Of a DNA stretch of 64,000 bases, positions 55,255-64,000 are shown one piece after another. The notes below the pieces were generated by a model. The model had not been told where the DNA came from. It saw only the letters and a program-made list of their open reading frames with translations, and ran no database searches. The stretch lies in assembly GCA_947460345.1 (NCBI GenBank), contig CANHGM010000013.1, forward strand, positions 18,610 through 82,609, in the 5' to 3' direction. The stretch comes from Bacteroidota bacterium. Its GTDB lineage: Bacteria > Bacteroidota > Bacteroidia > UKL13-3. Positions within the stretch are counted from its first letter, which is position 1; each line of letters opens with the position of its first letter. A program made the translations under genes and the position numbers.

Positions 55255-58050
55255 ATGAAAAAGATAAGTATCATTTTAGCATCGGCAATGTTTGTTGTTG
55301 CTGGACTGGGTTTTGGTTATTTTCAAAAAAAGGAAATAAAAAACTATCAACCTAGAATCAGCAAATTAGCTATTGTAGAAGAAGAAGCGGAAGAAGAAGA
55401 AGCAAAAGGAATGTTCGAATTCTTCAAAATGTTTAGAAACAACCCAACAACAGGCACTGTTTCTTTAGAAGACATTAAACTTGCACAACAAGGGTTGAGA
55501 AATATGTCAAACCTTCGTGGAAGTTTACCACTTAATTGGAGTGAGTTAGGCCCAGACAACGTTGGAGGTAGAACTAGATGCATTCTAATTGACAATCAAG
55601 ATGCTACTGGAAATACAGTATATGCTGGTGGCGTTAGTGGTGGTTTATGGAAATCAACCAATGGAGGAGCTTATTGGAATAAGATAAGTGATATACAAGA
55701 AAATTTAATAGTATCAAGCATATGCCAAACTCCTGATGGGACTTTATTTTATGGTACAGGAGAAGATGGTTTTTATTTTTCGAGTGGACAAGGCCAAGGA
55801 GGAGGTTTTTTTGGAGGGGGAGCATTTAAGTCATCAGATGGTGGTAAAACATTTAAATTATTATCAAACACTAATCCATCTGCATCAGGTGGAACTAAGT
55901 GGTTATCAGTTCAATCTATGGCTGCTCATCCAACAAAAAACAGAGCATATGCATGTTTAGCTAATGGTTTTTATTTAACAGATGATGGTGGGACAACTTG
56001 GACAAAACCAAGCACTTCAGGTGCACCAGGAAACGCTACTATACAAGAGGTTAAGGTAGATAAAAATGGCGTAGTTTATGTAACCAATTCGACCAATGTT
56101 TGGAGATCTGATGATGGTGGCGATAACTATGTAAATATTACTCCTAAAAACACAAACACTACTGGTGGTGCATTTAGCAATTCTAGAAGAATTTCAATAG
56201 CTGTTGGATATTCAAATACTAATTATGTTTATATAATGGTTGCTGACAATGCTAGTAAATTAGCTGGAATTTTTCAAAGTACAGATAAGGGTAGCAATTG
56301 GAGTAGAATAGCTAGTAGGTCTCAGAACGGAGTAGACTTTGACCCATTAGCCAGTACTGCTAGTGCTCAAGGAGTATATGACAACGTAATTGGTGTAGAC
56401 CCAACTAATGAAAACAGAGTATTTGCTGCGGGTGTAGATTGGTGGGAATGGTTAAATCCAGCAGTTTACCCTAACAACCCAAAAAGTGGGTGGACAAATC
56501 CTACATCACAATTTGGAAGCAAATTCAATAATTTGTATATTCACTCTGATGTTCATTTTATTGCATTTGATTCGAAACATGGTTCGCCATTTATTACTTA
56601 TATAGGTACTGATGGAGGTATAACTAAATCAGTAGATGGTTGTAACACTTTTGCAACTCTGAATAGAGGATACAATGTAACTCAATTTTATGGAATGGCA
56701 GTTAATCCATTGTCGAGCAGTAGAGGATGGGAAAAGAAATATTTTGGTGGAACACAAGATAATAGTTGTGTATTAATAACCGGAAAAGGAAATACAGCAC
56801 AAACAAGTGTTACAATTTCTGGAGGTGATGGTTTTCAGTGTGAAGGTTCTCAAATATATCCTGAAATTATGTTCTATGGTTCTCAAAATGGTGGTTATAT
56901 GCGTTCAGGCAATGGAGGTGTTGATGCACAAAGAATGTATGATTGTAGAACAATTTGGCAAATGGATAATGCTTATGGATATGGTTCTGCAAATAAGTGT
57001 GAAGACAAAACAAGTGGATTTATAGATTATTTCAATGTTCCAATGAGACTTAAAGAAAAATGGAGCGATACTACTTCATTAATGGCTATTTGTGCTAATC
57101 GTCAAAATAAAACAGGAGGTGCTATATATATAACAAGAGATGCGATAGATTTGAAAAAACAAACAGGAGCTTTATGGTTTAATTTGTATGAAAATAACGG
57201 GTATTTTCATAAAATTGAAATATCAAATGATTTAAAATCAATATATGCAGCTACTGGTTCTTCATTAATTCGTATTCAAGGATTTGATACTATTACCTTC
57301 CCTACAGATACTAAAGATTCATCATGGAAAGTAGATCAAAACAGTATTCAAGTTAAGACTTTAAACAATTTTGGTGGTAGATTTATTACAGGTATAGCTG
57401 AAGATAAAAATGATCCAGCCCATCTTGTTGTTTCTTTAGGTAACTATGGTTCAACTGACCATGTGTATGAATCAAAAGACAGTGGAACTACTTGGGTAAA
57501 TATATCTGGAAATAATATGTTAAACTTCCCTGTTTATGATGTAATTATCTCTAATGAAAACTCAAAAGTAATTGTTGTTGCTACTGAATTTGGAATATTT
57601 GCAACTAAAGATGGAGGATTAACTTGGACTGAACAAAACAATGGCATGGCAAGAGTACCAGTATTACAAATTCGTCAATACCAAGATAAACCTTGGGAAG
57701 GTCCTACATTATACATAGCTACTCATGGTAGAGGCTTATTTAAATCAAATTCGCTCACTACAGGAATAGAAGTAAATAATACATCAAGTATCAAAACAAG
57801 ACTTTCTGTTTTTCCTAATCCGACAAGTGATGTAGTAAATATTGAATACTCAGCAAAACAAACAGGTACTGCTTATATTACCGTTGTTGATATAAAAGGG
57901 AATTTAATATACAATGCTGATTATAGAATTGCATTGCCAGGAAATCAAAGAATTAGTTTAAATACAGCAAATTGGTCTAGTGGTAATTATGTGATTTATT
58001 TAAAAACTAATGATGGAGAGCAATATCAAAAGTTGAGCGTTATTAAATAA
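55255..58050 (+). CDS. BNR/Asp-box repeat (sortilin/VPS10-like beta-propeller) protein with a T9SS type A C-terminal sorting domain
   Basis: At least 8 Asp-box repeats S/T-x-D/N-G-G-x-T/N-W/F (STNGGAYW, SSDGGKTF, TDDGGTTW, SDDGGDNY, STDKGSNW, SKDSGTTW, TKDGGLTW …). C-terminal CTD LSVFPNPTSDVVNIEY...GNYVIYLKTNDGEQYQKLSVIK. N-terminal TM/signal. Confidence 0.8.
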   Translation: MKKISIILASAMFVVAGLGFGYFQKKEIKNYQPRISKLAIVEEEAEEEEAKGMFEFFKMFRNNPTTGTVSLEDIKLAQQGLRNMSNLRGSLPLNWSELGPDNVGGRTRCILIDNQDATGNTVYAGGVSGGLWKSTNGGAYWNKISDIQENLIVSSICQTPDGTLFYGTGEDGFYFSSGQGQGGGFFGGGAFKSSDGGKTFKLLSNTNPSASGGTKWLSVQSMAAHPTKNRAYACLANGFYLTDDGGTTWTKPSTSGAPGNATIQEVKVDKNGVVYVTNSTNVWRSDDGGDNYVNITPKNTNTTGGAFSNSRRISIAVGYSNTNYVYIMVADNASKLAGIFQSTDKGSNWSRIASRSQNGVDFDPLASTASAQGVYDNVIGVDPTNENRVFAAGVDWWEWLNPAVYPNNPKSGWTNPTSQFGSKFNNLYIHSDVHFIAFDSKHGSPFITYIGTDGGITKSVDGCNTFATLNRGYNVTQFYGMAVNPLSSSRGWEKKYFGGTQDNSCVLITGKGNTAQTSVTISGGDGFQCEGSQIYPEIMFYGSQNGGYMRSGNGGVDAQRMYDCRTIWQMDNAYGYGSANKCEDKTSGFIDYFNVPMRLKEKWSDTTSLMAICANRQNKTGGAIYITRDAIDLKKQTGALWFNLYENNGYFHKIEISNDLKSIYAATGSSLIRIQGFDTITFPTDTKDSSWKVDQNSIQVKTLNNFGGRFITGIAEDKNDPAHLVVSLGNYGSTDHVYESKDSGTTWVNISGNNMLNFPVYDVIISNENSKVIVVATEFGIFATKDGGLTWTEQNNGMARVPVLQIRQYQDKPWEGPTLYIATHGRGLFKSNSLTTGIEVNNTSSIKTRLSVFPNPTSDVVNIEYSAKQTGTAYITVVDIKGNLIYNADYRIALPGNQRISLNTANWSSGNYVIYLKTNDGEQYQKLSVIK

Positions 58051-58063
58051 GAAATTTAAAAGA

Positions 58064-58106
58064 AAAAGCCCATTAAGTAAAAATCTTAATGGGCTTTTTC
58101 TTTTTT
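58064..58106 (+). terminator. Rho-independent terminator after the BNR-repeat gene
   Basis: 12-bp stem aagcccattaag/cttaatgggctt with a 7-nt loop, followed by TTTTTCTTTTTT. Starts 14 nt after the stop. Confidence 0.65.
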
Positions 58107-58614
58107 GGAACGTATATTGTTTATATTTGTAAAAAAAATCACTTTAATGAAAAAAATACTTTTTGCATTTGCCATGTCAGGACTGTTAATTTTTAGCGGT
58201 TCATTTACAAAACCTTTAGAAGAATTAAAATGGTATGACTTTAATGAAGGATACCAAAAAGCTAAGAAAAACAAAAAAATTGCTTTAATAGATACATATA
58301 CTGATTGGTGTGGATGGTGCAAGAAAATGGATAGAGACACATACACCAAAAGTCAAATCATTGAAAAAATCAATAAAAATTTTGTACCTATTAAATTCAA
58401 TCCAGAAATAAAAGATATCAGATATACACTTGATGGAAAAGAATACAGTGGGATGGAACTTTTATCTGTTATTTCAAACAAACAACAATCAGGCTATCCT
58501 ACAACATTTTTTATAATAACTAAAAAGAATAGAGTAATGATAGAAGTTGGTTACCAAGATGCAACTCAGTTTTCAGCTACTTTAGATAAAATTTTGGCTG
58601 AATCTCAAAATTAA
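58105..58614 (+). CDS. Thioredoxin-fold protein with a WCGWC active site (DUF255/thioredoxin-7-like), secreted
   Basis: CxxC motif in YTDWCGWCKKMD. Probable true start at the ATG at 58147 (MKKILFAFAMSGLLIFSGSF signal peptide). The first 14 codons of the listed ORF overlap the upstream terminator. Confidence 0.75.
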   Translation: MERILFIFVKKITLMKKILFAFAMSGLLIFSGSFTKPLEELKWYDFNEGYQKAKKNKKIALIDTYTDWCGWCKKMDRDTYTKSQIIEKINKNFVPIKFNPEIKDIRYTLDGKEYSGMELLSVISNKQQSGYPTTFFIITKKNRVMIEVGYQDATQFSATLDKILAESQN

Positions 58615-58673: not shown

Positions 58674-59756
58674 CTAAAACATTCTGAAAACACCCCGTTG
58701 AGGGAAATCAAAACAATTTAATGGTTTTCTAGAACCTCTATTTCTACCAAATTTAAACTCATCATAAGTAAAAATTAGGGAAATTTCGTGGCTCCCCCAA
58801 GTCTGCGTTCTAATTCCACCTAGATTTACATCTAAACTATAAGTAATCTGATAACTTCCAGCATTTCCTATTCCACTATGTATACCCATATTAATAATTA
58901 ATGCATCAGTATTTCTGAAAGTGGTATATGGACTATTTCTGTAATCTATTCCAACAAAGTACCAATCTTTATATAAAAAACAACCCGCTTGAAAAGCCTG
59001 AAATACAACTTCATCAAAAGCTTTTTGACCTTGTTGAGAATAATAAATATGTGGAAAAAACTGTGTAGGTGTTTTACTTCTAAAATTCTTAATTGGAATC
59101 ATAGCACCTATATATATGCTTGATTTTAAAGGCAATCTTCTATGAACACCAATAAATGATTCATCAGGTCTAGTTAAGTGATGGAATGCACCACCCCAGC
59201 CAATATATGATTCTCTTATAAACCTTCTGATTCTGTGGTTAAAACTAAAACCAAAATCGAAATCAGAATAAAAAATAGAAGTATTAGCTGGCTGTTGAGC
59301 AGATGATTTATAGACTTTACCTAAAACTGGATCAAACTCGTCACTAAATTCTAGTTTAGTCCAATCAATACTTTTATTAACCATATTAATACCAGTAGCT
59401 AAACTAAACTCAGTGTTCCCACTTCTGCCCATTAAATTTCTATATGCGTATATAATTCCAAGTTGAGTTGTATTCAAAAAACCCTCTCCCCTATTATCGC
59501 TCATAGCTGTTAAACCTAAACCTCCAGAAATAGCAGGCGCTGAAATATCAACGCCAATACCTGTAGTATTTAAAGGACCTGGTACATTTGGCCATAATTG
59601 TCTATGAATGGTGGCTAACCTCATGCCTTTGTTCGCTCCTACTAATGCAGGATTTAGGTAAATCCTATTAGAGAATAATTGAGAATAAAACGGATCTTGA
59701 GCATGTAGTATTTCAACACAACTATATATAAGAAGATATAAAATTAATTTTTTCAA
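58674..59756 (-). CDS. Type IX secretion system membrane protein, PorP/SprF family
   Basis: Family-typical N-terminus after the signal: AQDPFYSQLFSNRIYLNPALVGANKGMRLATIHRQLWP. About 360 aa beta-rich OM protein. Confidence 0.75.
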   Translation of the reverse strand: MKKLILYLLIYSCVEILHAQDPFYSQLFSNRIYLNPALVGANKGMRLATIHRQLWPNVPGPLNTTGIGVDISAPAISGGLGLTAMSDNRGEGFLNTTQLGIIYAYRNLMGRSGNTEFSLATGINMVNKSIDWTKLEFSDEFDPVLGKVYKSSAQQPANTSIFYSDFDFGFSFNHRIRRFIRESYIGWGGAFHHLTRPDESFIGVHRRLPLKSSIYIGAMIPIKNFRSKTPTQFFPHIYYSQQGQKAFDEVVFQAFQAGCFLYKDWYFVGIDYRNSPYTTFRNTDALIINMGIHSGIGNAGSYQITYSLDVNLGGIRTQTWGSHEISLIFTYDEFKFGRNRGSRKPLNCFDFPQRGVFRMF

Positions 59757-59823
59757 AAAAGTTTGTGTGCAAAATTGAGCATAAAACTTGAATTAAAAAT
59801 ATCTTTTTTTTATTTTAAAAAGT

Positions 59824-59852
59824 TGACAATTATAGTGTTATTTTGTATAATC
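59824..59852 (+). promoter_or_regulatory. Strong promoter-like element (TTGACA-N17-TATAAT) upstream of the unlisted PKD-repeat gene
   Basis: ttgacaattatagtgttattttgtataat is an exact sigma70-type -35/-10 pair with 17-nt spacing. It also contains TAttTTG. Lies 88 nt upstream of the ATG at 59940. Could be chance in AT-rich DNA. Confidence 0.35.
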
Positions 59853-59939
59853 AAAAAAAAGATTAAAAATACATTTTATCAGAAATACATTAATACATAT
59901 AAGTTCTTATTTAAAAGCTTCAATAACTTACCTAAAAAT

Positions 59940-62900
59940 ATGCATTTTTTGGGGAGTATTTTGCTTTTCAGAGTTAATGTTTATAAGCAAAGCTAATGCT
60001 TGTAATGGCACGCCACAGTTAAGCTTTAGTACTAGTCCTTATTGTGTTGGCAGTAAAATATCTTTTCATTTTTCAACAACAGGTGTAGCCACAGTCAACA
60101 GTTATACAATAGACTTTGGAGATGGAAATGATAGTACTGCAAATTCAGCTGGCACTATAGACCATATATATAATTCATCTGGTATATTTTATATAAAGTT
60201 AATACGATCACTTACTGCTTGTAAAGATACATTGATAGATAGTATTACCATTAGTCCAAAACCATCAGCTGCATTTAGTTTAAAATTAGATTCAATATGT
60301 AGTGGACAAATAGATTCATTTTTCGCCAACAACAATTCTTTAACCTATCTGTGGAGTTACAGTTCAGGTGGAAGTGCTTCCACACAAAACACAGGTAAAA
60401 TATTTACAAACAGTGGTAGTTCGCCCATTTCTGTTACAACTAAACTAATGGTTACAAATGGAAATGGATGTAAGGATTCACTTTCTAAGAACTTTGTAGT
60501 GATGCCTTTGCCTAATCCTTCGTTTAGCTTTAATAATGACAGCAGTTGTTCTGGTTCGACAATAACATTTACTAATGCATCTTCTGGAGCAACAAAATAT
60601 ATATGGTTATTAGGCAATGGAGGAACTAGTAACTCTGTTTCACCAAGTCAAGTTTATCCAATCTCTATTGGAAGTGGTTTTTCAACCTATCTGCCAAAAC
60701 TATATGCCCAAAGTGCTTTTGGATGTATTGATTCAATACAAAAAACTATCAGACTAAAGCAAAAACCTGATGGAAGTATTCAAGATCCTTTTAGTTCGAT
60801 ACCTTATGCGATATGTGATACAAATTTAAGTTTAATTAGTTTCCTAGACTCATCTGTTACATCATCTTCAGATTCTATAAGGATATTTAATTGGGGTGAC
60901 GGAGTTCTTGATACCATTACTAATTTCTCCGCAGGTTTTAGCCACACATATAATTCAAATGGTTATTTTAGTTTAAAAATTACAACCACAGGAAAAAACA
61001 ATTGCTCAACCATAAGAAATTATAAAATCTTCAGAGGAAGTAACCCTTATGTTGGTATTGTAAGCATGGGCAGTACTACAGGTTTATGCGGACCTACTTC
61101 GATGAAGTATTTAATCAAGTATGACTCCACTCTTGTAGGCACAACATATTCGATATTCAGCAATAGTTCAAATGACACAATTGTTTATAATCACCCTCCT
61201 CCTGATACTGCTTCTTGGTTTTTTCAGAAATCAAGCTGTGGGTTTACAGATATATTTGGTGGTACTAATTCTTTTCATATTAGGGCTCTTGCTCAAAATG
61301 CATGTGGATTCACCCCAGCAAGTTTTGGCAATATTACTGTTAATCTTAGACCTTTTGTTGGGTTTAAATTTTCACCAGATACTATTTGCAAAAACGATGT
61401 AATCTCATTCACAGATACTTCAACCGCAGGGAAAGTTGTTCCTTCATGTACAGGATTAAAGTATTTGAAATGGTTAATTAGTCCTACTAGTTTTGATACA
61501 ATCGGTGGGACAAAACTTGGTTCACCAACTACATGGTTCAATGCTAACTCTGGATCTTCAACTCTACAAATAAGAGTTAAAGATACGGGTTATTATGCCA
61601 TTAAACTAATAGTTGCAAACTTAAATAGAGTCTGTAATAACGGAAATAGTAGCGACACTGCTATAAAATATTTAAGGGTGTTAGAACCTCCTATCCCTAA
61701 ATTCAAGTTCTCTGCTGATTCAGGGTGCATCAATTTAATTGATACTTTTATTAATCAAACAAGAGGTGTTGTATCAAAATACAAATGGACTATAATTTCT
61801 CCTGCATCCGGATATACTTATAATTCTGGAAGTGGAGATACATCTATCAATCCAAGGTTAACATTTAATACTCCTGGAATATATATAGTAAAACTAGAGG
61901 CAACAAATGCTTGTACAACCGCTGTATATATAGATACAGTTATAGTTAAGAAAAAGCCACAAATTAATTTAACATCTATTAATAATAACTGTGTGCCATA
62001 CATAGTTAAACCTTCAGTTTCATATAATTCCAATTACTCAACTATTTCATCATATAGTTGGTCTTTTGTTGGAGGTAGCCCTTCTGCATCTGTATTAGCA
62101 TATCCAGATAGCATTATTTATAATACATCTGGCAATTACACAGTTGTTCTAAAGGCTATAAATGAATGTGGGCAGGATTCTGTCACAAAGAGCTTTATTG
62201 TATTCCCAAAACCAACACTGAATTTGGGAAAATCAATTGATAGTATTTGTATAAATGGAGGTAACTTTAATTTATCAGGATATAATCCTACAGGTGGAAA
62301 TTGGACAGGAACTGCTGTCTCATCAAGTGGCATTTTTAATCCAATTACTTCAGGGTTAGGGACGTTTACTTTAACCTATACATATACTGACACAAATGGT
62401 TGTACAAATACTGCAACAAAAAAAATTACTGTCTTCAATAAACCAACTGTTGCCTTTGTATGTATTCAACATTGCGTAGATAGTGCAATTAGTTTTACTG
62501 ATAGTTCTGCAACAGCCGGTTCAAATATACAATCTAGATTATGGTATTTTGGAGATGGATCAACCTCTACAGCCACAAACCCAAGTCATACTTACGCAAG
62601 CGCTAATAATTATAATGTTAAACTGGTGATAACTAATTCAATTGGATGTAAAGATAGTTTAACCAAAAGTATAACAGTTTATCCGAAACCTTCTCCATCA
62701 TTCTCTGCCAGTGATACCATCCTATGTTTCAAAGGTAACAATTTCACATTTACTAATTCATCAACTATTGCCACCGGAAGTATTAATAGTTATTCATGGA
62801 AATTTGGAGATACTGCCACATCAAGCGCTACCAGTCCTTCTCATTCTTATGCAGATTCAGGTTCATTTAAGGTAAGAATGTTAGCTATAAGTGACCACGG

Positions 62901-64000
62901 TTGTCAAGATAGTATAATCAAAACCATCACGGTATTAAATAGTCCCAAGGTTAACTTTACTATTAATGATACTGACCAATGCCTAACCGGAAATTCATTT
63001 GCGTATAATAGTACTTCAACTGCCAATGGAGGCACTATTACCAATTATAATTGGAATTTCGGTAATGGGAATATCTCCACTTCAAATTCTCCAACCGCAC
63101 AAACATATATAAGTTCAGGAACTTTTCCTGTTAAATTGATTATCACAAATAGCAAAGGCTGTAAAGATAGTCTGACTAAAAACATCAAAGTATATCCACA
63201 ACCCATTCCCGGTTTTAATTTTGGAGGTACATCCTTTTGTTCGCCTTATTCTTCAAGTTTAACAAACACCACTTCAGGAATTGCCACTTGGAAATGGAGT
63301 ATCAGCAATGCAAGCGGAGGAACAATATCTAACGATACTGCCAAGCAACCCACATTCAATTTTCCCGATAATCAAACCGGTACCGATTCAAACTATATAG
63401 TTAAACTGATTGCAACAAACTCAGATGGATGCAAAGATTCGTTCTCTGTATCATTAACTATTAAGAGTAGACCAAAATCATTATATACATTAGCAAATGA
63501 TAGCTGTGGGCCAATAGTTTTTAATATTAACAATTCAAGTTTATATGCAACGGGATATAATTGGAGCATCAATCCAACTGCAACCTTTAGCAATGCGACT
63601 GTGGCATCTCCAACGCTCACACTGCCTGTAAATCAAAGTGGCTCCACCATCAATTATGCAGTTAAATTAATTACTTCACTGAATAGTTGCTATGATACTT
63701 TGATAAAAAATATACAAGTATTTAGTAATCCGTTTGCTACATTCAATATGAGTAATACGGATAGTTGCGGACCTATACATATCTATTTTACCAATAATTC
63801 TACACCGGCTGCAGGTAATTCATATTTATGGGATTTTGGTAACGGAATTTCAAGTACAGCCAAAGACAGTAATTTGATTTTTACAAATCCAGGGGTAAAA
63901 GATTCATTATATAATATTAAACTTATAGCTATAACAAATAAAGGATGTATTGATGATTCTATAAGAACGTTAAAGGTTAAAACGAATGCAAAGGCATCTT
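59940..64000 (+). CDS. Large PKD-repeat surface protein, 3'-partial (over 1340 codons open to the window edge), with a frame break at its 5' end
   Basis: The frame with codon starts at positions ≡1 (mod 3) is open from 59851 to 64000. It encodes repeated PKD-like units (IDFGDGNDSTANS..., WYFGDGSTSTATNPSHTY..., WKFGDTATSSATSPSHSY..., WNFGNGNISTSNSPTAQTY...). The only signal-peptide-bearing start (ATG 59940, MHF...) is in the ≡0 (mod 3) frame and reaches a stop at 59994. Removing one nt from the T6G4 tract at 59945-59954 would fuse the two into MHFWGVFCFSELMFISKANA|CNGT.... The first in-frame ATG in the long frame is 59977. Absent from the ORF track because it has no stop in the window. Confidence 0.6.

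What the first reader, a model, noticed from the sequence alone, without database searches (positions are those of the whole stretch)
59940..64000. Unlisted PKD-repeat gene of more than 1340 codons whose signal-peptide start is out of frame across a T6G4 homopolymer tract
The last 4 kb of the window is one continuous open frame full of PKD-type repeats. The ORF track shows only short antisense ORFs there, because this frame has no stop before the window edge. The only start giving a signal peptide (ATG 59940) is in a different frame. A 1-nt contraction of ttttttgggg (59945-59954) would restore a 20-aa signal peptide fused to the body. The cause could be an assembly error in a homopolymer, a recent pseudogenisation, or slipped-strand phase variation of a large surface protein. 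A strong TTGACA-N17-TATAAT element sits 88 nt upstream, so the locus looks transcriptionally active.
Basis: seen in the sequence. Interest (0 to 1): 0.6.

Follow-up and report, generated by a model that had tools for sequence, protein, structure and literature searches.

The report
Giant adhesin gene with unclear start
The end of the window holds the first 1,340 codons of a real, roughly 4,100-4,700-codon cell-surface adhesin gene of an uncultured freshwater Bacteroidota bacterium. The supposed frameshift in its signal peptide is most likely not a frameshift, because the signal-peptide coding lies in the gene's own frame; what that frame lacks is a normal start codon.

Summary
The interpretation mostly fails.

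- **The gene.** It is a genuine giant PKD-repeat gene that faces away from a PorP/SprF gene. It continues past 64000 across a 100-N scaffold gap. A sister strain's copy ends in a type-B-like T9SS sorting domain.
- **The tract.** T6G4 is identical in 10 assemblies of this strain, so it is not an assembly error. No length variation was seen.
- **Sister strains.** Two sister strain types carry T7G3, the same length, through a G-to-T substitution. They have no ATG at 59940.
- **The leader.** The long frame is open back to 59851 and encodes an extended signal-peptide-like leader.
- **Relatives.** Four relatives start this gene with TTG or ATG, 21-37 nt after a conserved TATTTTGY promoter box.
- **This species.** The box lies at 59839-59846, which puts the likely transcript start near 59851. 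The homologous codon (59863) is TTA.
- **The real oddity.** The signal peptide has no canonical in-frame start, although the ORF is intact and under purifying selection (dN/dS 0.17).
- **Best guess.** Weak initiation at a near-cognate codon (AUA 59869) in an A-rich, unstructured 5' end.
- **Rivals.** A recent start-region knock-down, or a +1 insertion, specific to this strain.

The parts
59977..64000 (+). Body of the giant PKD-repeat adhesin gene, from the first canonical in-frame ATG to the window edge (1341 codons). The gene continues beyond the window to roughly 4.1-4.7 thousand codons.
   Evidence: Translation has no stop. Pfam PKD_4 1e-70. The source scaffold L001 continues the ORF after a 100-N gap, with a 3237-aa product called there. 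The sister allele is one ORF of 4114/4162 aa.
59863..60000 (+). Signal-peptide-like leader in the same frame as the body: (TTA)KIHFIRNTLIHISSYLKASITYLK-ICIFWGVFCF-SELMFISKANA. The predicted signal-peptidase site is A|C, between 60000 and 60001. There is no ATG/GTG/TTG in this frame before 59977.
   Evidence: The frame is open from 59851 (P=0.014 by shuffles). Relatives show the same architecture and the same A/S|C junction. The homologous start in relatives is TTG (L011, L020, L021) or ATG (L012).
59863..59871 (+). Presumed translation-initiation site: TTA AAA ATA. It occupies the position of the relatives' TTG/ATG start. AUA 59869 is the nearest near-cognate codon.
   Evidence: Alignment to L011. 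The box-to-start distance is 17 nt here versus 21-37 nt in relatives. This is the most unpaired part of the predicted mRNA (P unpaired about 0.7, against 0.3-0.4 at 59940, 59950 and 59977). The upstream sequence is A-rich, as favoured in F. johnsoniae (PMC6847099).
59853..59860 (+). Poly-A tract. It is A8 in this strain and in type G, and A10 in type N. It probably lies in the 5' UTR just after the transcript start.
   Evidence: With A10, gene callers extend the ORF to GTG 59835, but that GTG lies inside the conserved promoter box.
59839..59846 (+). Promoter box TATTTTGT (TAnnTTGY, the 'SM5' type). It is conserved as TATTTTGC in sister strains and in L011, L020 and L021. It implies a transcript start near 59851.
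   Evidence: PMC9723704 places the SM5 box at -12 to -5 and shows that it drives remFG-sprCDBF in F. psychrophilum. The motif alone is common in the window (130 matches), so the support comes from conservation.
59823..59851 (+). Perfect E. coli-type TTGACA-N17-TATAAT match. It overlaps the box above and is probably not the functional element.
   Evidence: The hexamers diverge in sister strains (CATAAT) and in L011.
59945..59954 (+). It lies inside the hydrophobic core of the leader (codons F-W-G).
   Evidence: Identical in 10 assemblies of this strain. It is T7G3 in the sister types, with the same length.
59940..59996 (+). Strain-specific out-of-frame ATG with an 18-codon ORF (MHFLGSILLFRVNVYKQS*).
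   Evidence: The ATG is absent (TTT) in types G and N.
59939..59969 (+). Cluster of five substitutions (59939, 59940, 59942, 59951, 59969) that separates this strain from both sister types.
   Evidence: 5 of the 17 differences in 58700-60600 fall within 31 nt. In the long frame all five change the amino acid (N>I, F>C, L>W, L>S).
58674..59756 (-). Divergently transcribed PorP/SprF-family T9SS outer-membrane protein, the presumed cognate partner of the adhesin.
   Evidence: Pfam PF11751 3e-33. TIGR03519 scores 151.6 bits against a cutoff of 90.55. The same adjacency occurs in L008-L012.

Best explanation
This is the 5' end of a functional giant cell-surface adhesin gene of the SprB kind, roughly 4,100-4,700 aa. 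It consists of PKD/Ig-like repeats and is secreted by the type IX secretion system. It probably carries a type-B C-terminal sorting domain and is paired with the PorP/SprF gene that faces away from it.

Transcription most likely starts near 59851, from a conserved TAnnTTGY box at 59839-59846.

The signal peptide is encoded in the same frame as the body:
- a long basic n-region at about 59863-59937;
- a hydrophobic core, ICIFWGVFCF;
- a c-region, SELMFISKANA, cleaved before Cys at 60001.

No frameshift at T6G4 is therefore needed. ATG 59940 is a strain-specific, out-of-frame triplet that lies inside the leader.

The real anomaly is the start codon. Relatives have TTG or ATG at the homologous position, and this species has TTA (59863). 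I infer that translation starts weakly at a near-cognate codon in this A-rich, unstructured 5' end. AUA 59869 is the best candidate, and it would give a leader of about 44 aa.

Shown here: gene identity, continuity and neighbourhood; tract invariance; the sister alleles; the in-frame leader; conservation of the promoter box; and the start positions in relatives.

Inferred: the transcript start, translation of the leader in this species, and the identity of the initiation codon.
For: **A real and intact gene**
- The ORF is open for 1383 codons in the window.
- It continues right after the N gap.
- A 3237-aa product is called downstream on the source scaffold.
- The sister allele is one ORF of 4114 aa. 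It is identical to the L008 translation over 3259 aa.
- dN/dS between this strain and type G is 0.17, from 23 synonymous and 14 non-synonymous changes.

**T9SS context**
- The neighbour is PorP/SprF.
- The C-terminus of the type-N allele matches TIGR04131 at E=8e-5.
- That C-terminus aligns to PF13585-bearing sorting domains at E=4e-23.

**No frameshift**
- T6G4 is identical in L001-L006, L017-L019 and the window.
- Types G and N have T7G3 with the same length and no ATG 59940.

**Leader in frame**
- The long frame is stop-free through AT-rich 59851-59976 (P=0.014).
- Its codon-usage likelihood favours in-frame reading by about 6-7 log-likelihood units (nats) over the off-frame models.
- L011 has a comparable extended basic leader, (M)KIYSRIKQHIVVHTHSVR-LWSVMCLLTLILFPF-NEAYS|C.
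- L020, L021 and L012 have 26-31-aa signal peptides that end just before the same Cys.

**Start site**
- The conserved box is followed after 21-37 nt by TTG or ATG in four relatives.
- Here it is followed after 17 nt by TTA AAA ATA.
- The 5' end has the highest predicted accessibility.
- It also has the A-rich context that promotes initiation in Bacteroidia (PMC6847099).
- Near-cognate AUA/AUU/AUC initiate at about 0.1-3% of AUG in E. coli (10.1101/063800).
Against: - No canonical start supports the leader, and near-cognate initiation has not been shown in Bacteroidota. Their ribosomes are thought to depend heavily on AUG.
- The open leader frame could be a relic of a recently lost start. Too little time may have passed for stops to appear.
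- The five clustered substitutions exceed the neutral rate. They create an ATG and destroy the in-frame TTG 59950 of the sister strains, which looks like more than drift in a signal peptide.
- The ATG-59940 frame is also stop-free across the leader (P of two open frames = 1.5e-4). The -1 frame is open in only 0.5% of comparable windows in real genes. This explanation leaves that to chance.
- No signal-peptide predictor, transcript data or proteomic data were available.
- The C-terminus of this strain's own allele was not retrievable.
Confidence: 0.45

Rival explanations
1. Start-codon turnover, with a strain-specific knock-down. After the ancestral TTG became TTA, the species shifted to the in-frame TTG at 59950, which gives (M)GVFCFLELMFISKA(N/S)A. 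That TTG is present in types G and N. In this strain the cluster of substitutions turned TTG into TGG and created an out-of-frame ATG that captures ribosomes. The adhesin would then be poorly made or not exported. That would be a recent, possibly selected, silencing of a hypervariable surface protein.
For: - TTG 59950 exists in types G and N but is TGG here.
- It sits at -17 from the Cys, next to where L011 has GTG-ATG at -17/-16.
- Five substitutions fall within 31 nt, well above the background rate.
- The body of the gene is only about 60% identical to type N, although the flanks are about 96% identical, as expected for a surface antigen under diversifying pressure.
- All ten assemblies of this strain are clonal, so an intact ORF does not exclude a very recent loss.
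Against: - A TTG-59950 product has no basic n-region and only a 6-residue hydrophobic run before a Glu, which is poor for Sec targeting.
- Its context is U-rich and predicted to be paired (P unpaired 0.31).
- dN/dS of 0.17 between this strain and type G argues against long neutral evolution on this branch.
Confidence: 0.2
2. ATG 59940 became the start in this lineage, and a later 1-nt gain in the T/G run put it out of frame. That would be either a fresh pseudogene or OFF phase, or a site decoded at low level by +1 ribosomal slippage on UUU-U or by polymerase slippage.
For: - ATG 59940 has A at -3 and -6, a good Bacteroidia context (PMC6847099).
- Three substitutions within 4 nt created it, which hints at selection.
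- Its frame is stop-free up to 59996, and two frames are open across the leader.
- Deleting one base gives a 20-aa peptide with a 7-8-residue hydrophobic core.
Against: - Ten of ten assemblies read T6G4.
- No allele with an in-frame ATG was found.
- T6 and G4 are short for slipped-strand switching, and such runs are common here.
- The ATG is absent in the sister strains and has no counterpart in relatives.
- The ATG sits in a region predicted to be paired.
- MHF lacks a basic n-region.
Confidence: 0.15
3. Phase variation at the poly-A tract. GTG 59835 would be the start. A10 (or A7) would join it to the body (ON, type N), and A8 would be OFF (this strain and type G).
For: - The tract length differs between strains, A8 versus A10.
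- With A10, one caller annotates a single 4162-aa ORF from GTG.
- A8-A10 is long enough for slippage.
Against: - GTG 59835 lies inside the conserved promoter box.
- In L011 the same box is separated from the ORF by stops in all three frames, and the GTG is GCG there.
- In L021 the same over-extension through the box is visibly an annotation artefact.
- Type G (A8) would also be OFF.
- Another intergenic A-run (58131) also varies, A8 versus A9, so this looks like ordinary homopolymer drift.
Confidence: 0.06
4. Translation starts at ATG 59977 (MFISKANA...), as most gene callers annotate it. The protein would have no cleavable signal peptide.
For: It is the only canonical in-frame start in this strain. 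It is conserved in all three strain types, and most callers choose it.
Against: - T9SS cargo need a Sec signal peptide (PMC9143113, PMC12618676).
- Eight residues before the conserved Cys cannot span the membrane.
- All colinear relatives carry 23-43-aa leaders before that Cys.
- The context is poor, with no A at -3 or -6.
Confidence: 0.05
5. A homopolymer sequencing or assembly error.
For: None beyond the general error-proneness of homopolymers.
Against: The sequence is identical in ten assemblies from at least nine runs in three accession series. Those assemblies are 99.9-100% identical overall.
Confidence: 0.01

Closest known systems
SprB adhesin with SprF (PorP-like) of Flavobacterium johnsoniae / F. 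psychrophilum (sprCDBF)
   Same: - A giant repetitive cell-surface protein encoded next to a PorP/SprF-family gene.
- A type-B-like C-terminal sorting domain.
- A promoter box of the TAnnTTGY (SM5) type, as shown experimentally for remFG-sprCDBF (PMC9723704).
- PorP-like proteins anchor their neighbouring type-B cargo (PMC9143113).
   Different: - The partner gene is divergent and upstream, rather than downstream in an operon.
- No sprC or sprD is seen nearby.
- The repeats are PKD-type.
- The sorting domain is below the TIGR04131 cutoff.
- There is no canonical start codon in front of the signal peptide.
- A role in gliding is untested.
Colinear giant PKD proteins of uncultured Bacteroidota (P0237/P0085, 4754/4140 aa; P0239, 4178 aa; P0238, 4114 aa)
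   Same: - The same N-terminal Cys-x-G-T domain directly after the signal peptide.
- The same overall size and repeat order (44-51% identity over 97-100% of the query).
- The same divergent C-terminal domain ending in TLIR.
- The same TATTTTGC box upstream.
   Different: - The relatives have an unambiguous TTG start 21-27 nt after the box and a 26-27-aa signal peptide.
- P0237 and P0239 are not next to a PorP/SprF gene.
Genes with near-cognate start codons (E. coli infC and pcnB, AUU)
   Same: A functional gene without ATG/GTG/TTG at its initiation site. Weak initiation would act as a way of keeping expression low.
   Different: Those cases are experimentally proven and conserved. Here the start codon is only inferred, and no such case is documented for Bacteroidota as far as I found.
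Homopolymer contingency loci (slipped-strand phase variation, e.g. Neisseria and Haemophilus surface proteins)
   Same: A surface protein with mononucleotide runs near its 5' end. The gene body is hypervariable between strains.
   Different: No tract-length polymorphism occurs at T6G4, and the tracts are short. The one polymorphic run (A8/A10) lies upstream of the conserved start site.

Membership tests
T9SS type-B-CTD cargo (SprB-like adhesin) | C-terminal type B sorting domain (TIGR04131 / PF13585) | tested here: inconclusive
   This strain's C-terminus lies outside the DNA held. The sister allele P0238 scores 22.7 bits on TIGR04131, below the cutoff of 35 (E=8e-5). It aligns to the PF13585-bearing sorting domains of P0089 and P0240 at E=4e-23 and 1e-15, with the PNAFTP, WGE, GWDG and terminal LIR motifs.
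T9SS type-B-CTD cargo (SprB-like adhesin) | Adjacent cognate PorP/SprF-family gene | tested here: met
   58674-59756(-) matches PF11751 at 3e-33 and TIGR03519 at 151.6 bits, above the cutoff. The adjacency is conserved in L008-L012.
T9SS type-B-CTD cargo (SprB-like adhesin) | N-terminal Sec signal peptide | tested here: inconclusive
   A signal-peptide-like segment is encoded in frame (59863-60000) and ends at the conserved A|C junction. It has no ATG/GTG/TTG in front of it, and ATG 59977 gives none. No predictor was available.
T9SS type-B-CTD cargo (SprB-like adhesin) | Very large repetitive Ig-like extracellular region | tested here: met
   PKD_4 and PKD repeats run throughout. The total is about 4.1-4.7 thousand aa.
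T9SS type-B-CTD cargo (SprB-like adhesin) | Secretion depends on the T9SS; surface localisation or gliding | not testable with these tools
   Needs genetics or microscopy in an uncultured organism.
Slipped-strand phase-variable (contingency) gene | Tract length differs among close relatives or within a population | tested here: not met
   T6G4 is identical in 10 assemblies. Types G and N have T7G3 of equal length through a substitution. Read-level minorities could not be examined.
Slipped-strand phase-variable (contingency) gene | Tract lies between the true start codon and the body, so that length sets the frame | tested here: not met
   ATG 59940 is absent in the sister strains and in relatives. 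The leader is in frame with the body on both sides of the tract.
Slipped-strand phase-variable (contingency) gene | Long homopolymer (usually 7-8 nt or more) | tested here: not met
   T6 plus G4. There are 79 T6 and 24 G4 runs in the window. The A8/A10 run qualifies by length but lies upstream of the conserved start site.
Pseudogene | Disrupted ORF and relaxed selection | tested here: not met
   No stop in more than 3,200 held codons. dN/dS is 0.17 against type G. A very recent loss of the start cannot be excluded.
Programmed +1 ribosomal frameshift (prfB-like) | Slippery site and upstream start conserved across orthologues | tested here: not met
   Neither the ATG nor the T6G4 sequence is conserved, even within the species.
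Bacteroidota SM5-type promoter (TAnnTTGY) | TAnnTTGY box at -12 to -5, conserved upstream of the gene | tested here: met
   TATTTTGT lies at 59839-59846, and TATTTTGC lies in types G and N and in L011, L020 and L021, at 17-37 nt from the start position. The motif definition comes from PMC9723704. The transcript start itself is not testable here.

The most novel reading that the evidence does not exclude
The leader may be decoded by recoding rather than by simple initiation. Both the gene frame and the ATG-59940 frame are kept free of stops across 59851-59976; all six stop triplets fall in the third frame (P=1.5e-4). The strain-specific substitutions create an AUG in the loop of a CCUAAAAA/UUUUUGGG hairpin, directly before a U6G4 run. 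Ribosomes could start in the other frame (AUG 59940, or AUU 59862) and shift +1 on UUU-U into the adhesin frame. This would be a programmed frameshift that throttles synthesis of a 4,700-aa surface protein. A milder version is obligate near-cognate (AUA) initiation of a giant adhesin in a phylum thought to rely strictly on AUG.
Probability: 0.07. Interest if true: 0.7.

Novelty: new member of a known kind. Interest (0 to 1): 0.33.

Why it matters
**For annotation.** Giant T9SS adhesin genes are easily lost or mis-started. Here one caller started inside the signal peptide and another ran through the promoter, and the source scaffold's gene calls broke the gene at an N gap. Comparing relatives, using the conserved promoter box and the start position, fixes this.

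**For biology.** The locus shows a hypervariable surface adhesin. Its body is about 60% identical between strains whose flanks are about 96% identical, and its initiation region is a hot spot of change. The canonical start codon is missing, yet the 14-kb ORF is under purifying selection.

If near-cognate initiation or recoding were confirmed, it would bear on how SD-less Bacteroidota ribosomes choose start sites. It would also show how cells limit expression of very costly surface proteins.

Tried and rejected
**Rejected explanations**
- Assembly error: ten concordant assemblies.
- Frame-breaking lesions in type G as evidence of decay. The break in L015 is an N-gap artefact. The 22-nt deletion in L007 is absent from L015, which comes from the same site.
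- GTG 59835 as the start (the call in L008). It lies in the conserved promoter box, and L011 has stops in all three frames between the box and its ORF.
- A paralogous donor for the strain-specific start segment: no other copy exists in the window.
- General use of non-canonical starts in this genome. Among 35 long ORFs, this gene has the longest start-free open upstream stretch (42 codons), but another has 37, so there is no genome-wide signal.
- Two-frame openness as a conserved feature: it is not seen in L011.
- The second TATTTTGC box at 59957-59964 as the real promoter. The motif is common, and it would leave no signal peptide.

**Searches that led nowhere**
- Closer relatives in the GTDB genomes and JGI metagenomes. 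Searches found nothing closer than 32% PorP identity.
- The LipA scan gave at most 78% identity to assorted Bacteroidota, so the lineage could not be named.
- This strain's own C-terminus. The 3237-aa product was not returned by the homologue search.


Full report
**Observation**

The sequence facts hold.
- The frame that starts after TAA 59848-59850 is open to the window edge, 1383 codons.
- Its first ATG/GTG/TTG is ATG 59977.
- The product is full of PKD/PKD_4 repeats (1e-70).
- The ORF list omits it because it runs off the window.
- ATG 59940 lies in the frame one base earlier, and its own ORF ends at 59996.
- T6G4 occupies 59945-59954.
- TTGACA-N17-TATAAT at 59823-59851 matches 12 of 12 positions.

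**Source and continuity**

A look-up of the neighbouring PorP/SprF protein found the source scaffold, ENA MEHR18-2 scaffold_511 (L001). It is 100% identical to the window. The look-up also found Logan contigs from other runs.

The scaffold has 100 Ns at window-equivalent 64082-64181. The gap is flanked by a long internal repeat of the gene. The ORF resumes in frame immediately after the gap, and a 3237-aa product is called there.

In a sister strain (L008, GCA_044350015.1) the gene is one uninterrupted ORF. One caller makes it 4162 aa. JGI makes it 4114 aa, starting at MFISKASA. That protein (P0238) is identical to the L008 translation over 3259 aa. It is a bona fide giant gene.

**Family context**
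- The divergent neighbour, 58674-59756(-), is a PorP/SprF-family protein. TIGR03519 scores 151.6 bits against a cutoff of 90.55.
- The C-terminus of P0238 (…FVPNAFTP…WGELIWES…GWDGTWKG…TLIR) matches TIGR04131, the T9SS type B sorting domain. The match is below the curated cutoff (22.7 versus 35 bits).
- That C-terminus aligns to PF13585-bearing domains at E=4e-23.
- PorP-like proteins anchor the type-B cargo encoded next to them, as SprF does for SprB (PMC9143113).
- Colinear giants of 4,100-5,000 aa exist in other uncultured Bacteroidota.
- LipA is at most 78% identical to any GTDB representative, so the lineage is deep and unnamed.

**Is T6G4 an error or a switch?**

Sixteen loci, from 15 distinct contigs, fall into three allele types.

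| Type | Loci | Poly-A tract | 59940 | T/G tract |
|---|---|---|---|---|
| W | the window, L001-L006, L017-L019 (ten assemblies) | A8 | ATG | T6G4 |
| G | L007 (=L016), L015 | A8 | TTT | T7G3 |
| N | L008-L010 | A10 | TTT | T7G3 |

The T/G run is 10 nt long in every locus. The difference between types is a G-to-T substitution, not an indel. So there is no assembly error, and no tract-length variation at the consensus level. T6 and G4 runs are also common in the window (79 and 24).

The apparent frame breaks in type G are scaffold artefacts. L015 has an N gap. The 22-nt deletion in L007 is absent from L015.

**The leader is in the gene's frame**

Upstream of ATG 59977 the long frame reads SKKRLKIHFIRNTLIHISSYLKASITYLK-ICIFWGVFCF-SELMFISKANA|CNGT. 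That is a long basic n-region, a 10-residue hydrophobic core and a c-region ending A-N-A.

It is stop-free over 42 AT-rich codons (P=0.014). Its codon usage favours in-frame reading.

Leaders in the relatives:

| Locus | PorP identity | Leader |
|---|---|---|
| L011 | 77% | (TTG)KIYSRIKQHIVVHTHSVR-LWSVMCLLTLILFPF-NEAYS\|CGGT |
| L012 | 71% | MLSKISATPPSRLLHILFSIIFLSLIRFSYA\|CSGT |
| L020 (P0237) | not adjacent to PorP | (TTG)LIKRHIQLLCLIVVFALNNHAATAA\|CGGT |
| L021 (P0239) | not adjacent to PorP | (TTG)SINRLIQILSLVGVLAPNSNAVSAQA\|CSGT |

In all four relatives a conserved box lies 21-37 nt before the start. The box is TATTTTGC in three of them and TATTTTTG in L012. In L011, stops in all three frames separate the box from the ORF. 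In L021, and in L008, callers over-extended the ORF through the box.

The box matches the TAnnTTGY 'SM5' promoter motif of F. psychrophilum. That motif sits at -12 to -5, and mutagenesis showed that it drives remFG-sprCDBF (PMC9723704).

In the window the box is TATTTTGT at 59839-59846, which puts the transcript start near 59851. Seventeen nucleotides after the box lies TTA AAA ATA CAT TTT ATC AGA. This aligns with L011's TTG AAA ATT TAC TCG AGA.

The family's start position is therefore occupied by TTA in all three strain types. They read CATAAT in types G and N, and TTGGTC…CACTTA in L011.

**What then starts translation?**

Purifying selection argues that the protein is made. dN/dS between types W and G is 0.17 over 3.85 kb.

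The 5' end, 59851-59880, is the most accessible part of the predicted mRNA. P unpaired is about 0.7 there, against 0.3-0.4 around 59940, 59950 and 59977. It is also A-rich, which promotes initiation in SD-less Bacteroidia (PMC6847099).

The nearest near-cognate codon is AUA 59869. Such codons initiate at about 0.1-3% of AUG in E. coli (10.1101/063800). I take weak near-cognate initiation as the best single explanation, at about 0.45. It is inferred, not shown.

**Rivals**
1. Types G and N have an in-frame TTG at 59950. It lies at -17 from the Cys, next to L011's GTG-ATG. Type W has TGG there. Type W may be a recent knock-down allele. However, a TTG-59950 product has a very poor signal peptide.
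2. No in-frame allele was found, and the ATG is not ancestral.
3. A-tract switching with GTG 59835 conflicts with the promoter box.
4. ATG 59977 leaves no signal peptide, and T9SS cargo need one (PMC9143113).

**Unexplained**
- Five of the 17 differences between types W and G in 58700-60600 fall within 59939-59969. In the long frame all five change the amino acid.
- These five changes create ATG 59940 and remove TTG 59950. They preserve a CCTAAAAA/TTTTTGGG hairpin by a register shift.
- The ATG-59940 frame is also stop-free across the leader. All six stop triplets are in the third frame (P=1.5e-4). The -1 frame is open in 0.5% of comparable windows in real genes. This is not seen in L011.
- These points keep a recoding scenario alive at low probability.

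**Verdict**

The frameshift and phase-variation reading is largely not supported. The locus is a new member of the SprB-like class of type-B-CTD giant adhesins with a PorP/SprF partner. Its unresolved feature is the missing canonical start codon, and it is of moderate interest.

Noticed in passing
window 60601-64000 versus L008: The adhesin body is hypervariable. Flanking genes and the first ~200 codons are about 95-96% identical in DNA between this strain and type N. Nucleotide similarity then collapses at about 60601, and the proteins are only 60% identical, though colinear, over 1340 aa. This suggests allelic replacement or diversifying selection with a recombination breakpoint.
   Followed up: partly
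window 55255-58050 (+): The neighbouring type-A-CTD cargo gene (Sortilin/BNR-like, Por_Secre_tail) has dS 0.25 between types W and G. Adjacent genes have dS 0.005-0.03. This is a second locally divergent, mosaic surface-protein gene.
   Followed up: no
L001, window-equivalent 64082-64181 and downstream: The 100-N scaffold gap is flanked by a long internal repeat of the gene (…CAPFNIDTNVIKPVHYPNA … ISLVAISTNGCKNDTLKV recurs about 600 aa later). All Logan contigs stop at about 64056. Large tandem duplications inside the gene break short-read assemblies and split the gene calls.
   Followed up: partly
window 58131-58138: The A8 run just upstream of the thioredoxin-like gene is A9 in L007 and L015. 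Intergenic poly-A runs drift in length between strains, as at 59853-59860.
   Followed up: no
window 59931-59954: A predicted AU-rich hairpin, CCUAAAAA / UUUUUGGG, has AUG 59940 in its loop. In types G and N it is CCUAAAAAA / UUUUUUGGG. Two of the five clustered substitutions (59939, 59951) keep it paired by shifting the register. It is not present in L011.
   Followed up: partly
window 59957-59964: A second exact TAnnTTGY match (TATTTTGCTT, identical over 10 nt to the box of L020 and L021) lies inside the leader, 12 nt before ATG 59977. It is probably chance, because the motif occurs 130 times in the window.
   Followed up: partly
window 58674-59756 (-): The PorP/SprF start is itself ambiguous. 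Different callers choose TTG 59756 (360 aa) or a downstream ATG (316 aa). The family model aligns from residue 1 of the longer form.
   Followed up: no
L011, L020, L021 (relatives): Three of the four relatives appear to start this giant gene with TTG rather than ATG. A weak start codon may be a conserved feature of this adhesin family.
   Followed up: partly
window 58058-58104: A 20-bp G+C-containing hairpin with T-runs on both sides lies between the convergent ends of 55255-58050 and the next gene. It looks like a bidirectional terminator.
   Followed up: no
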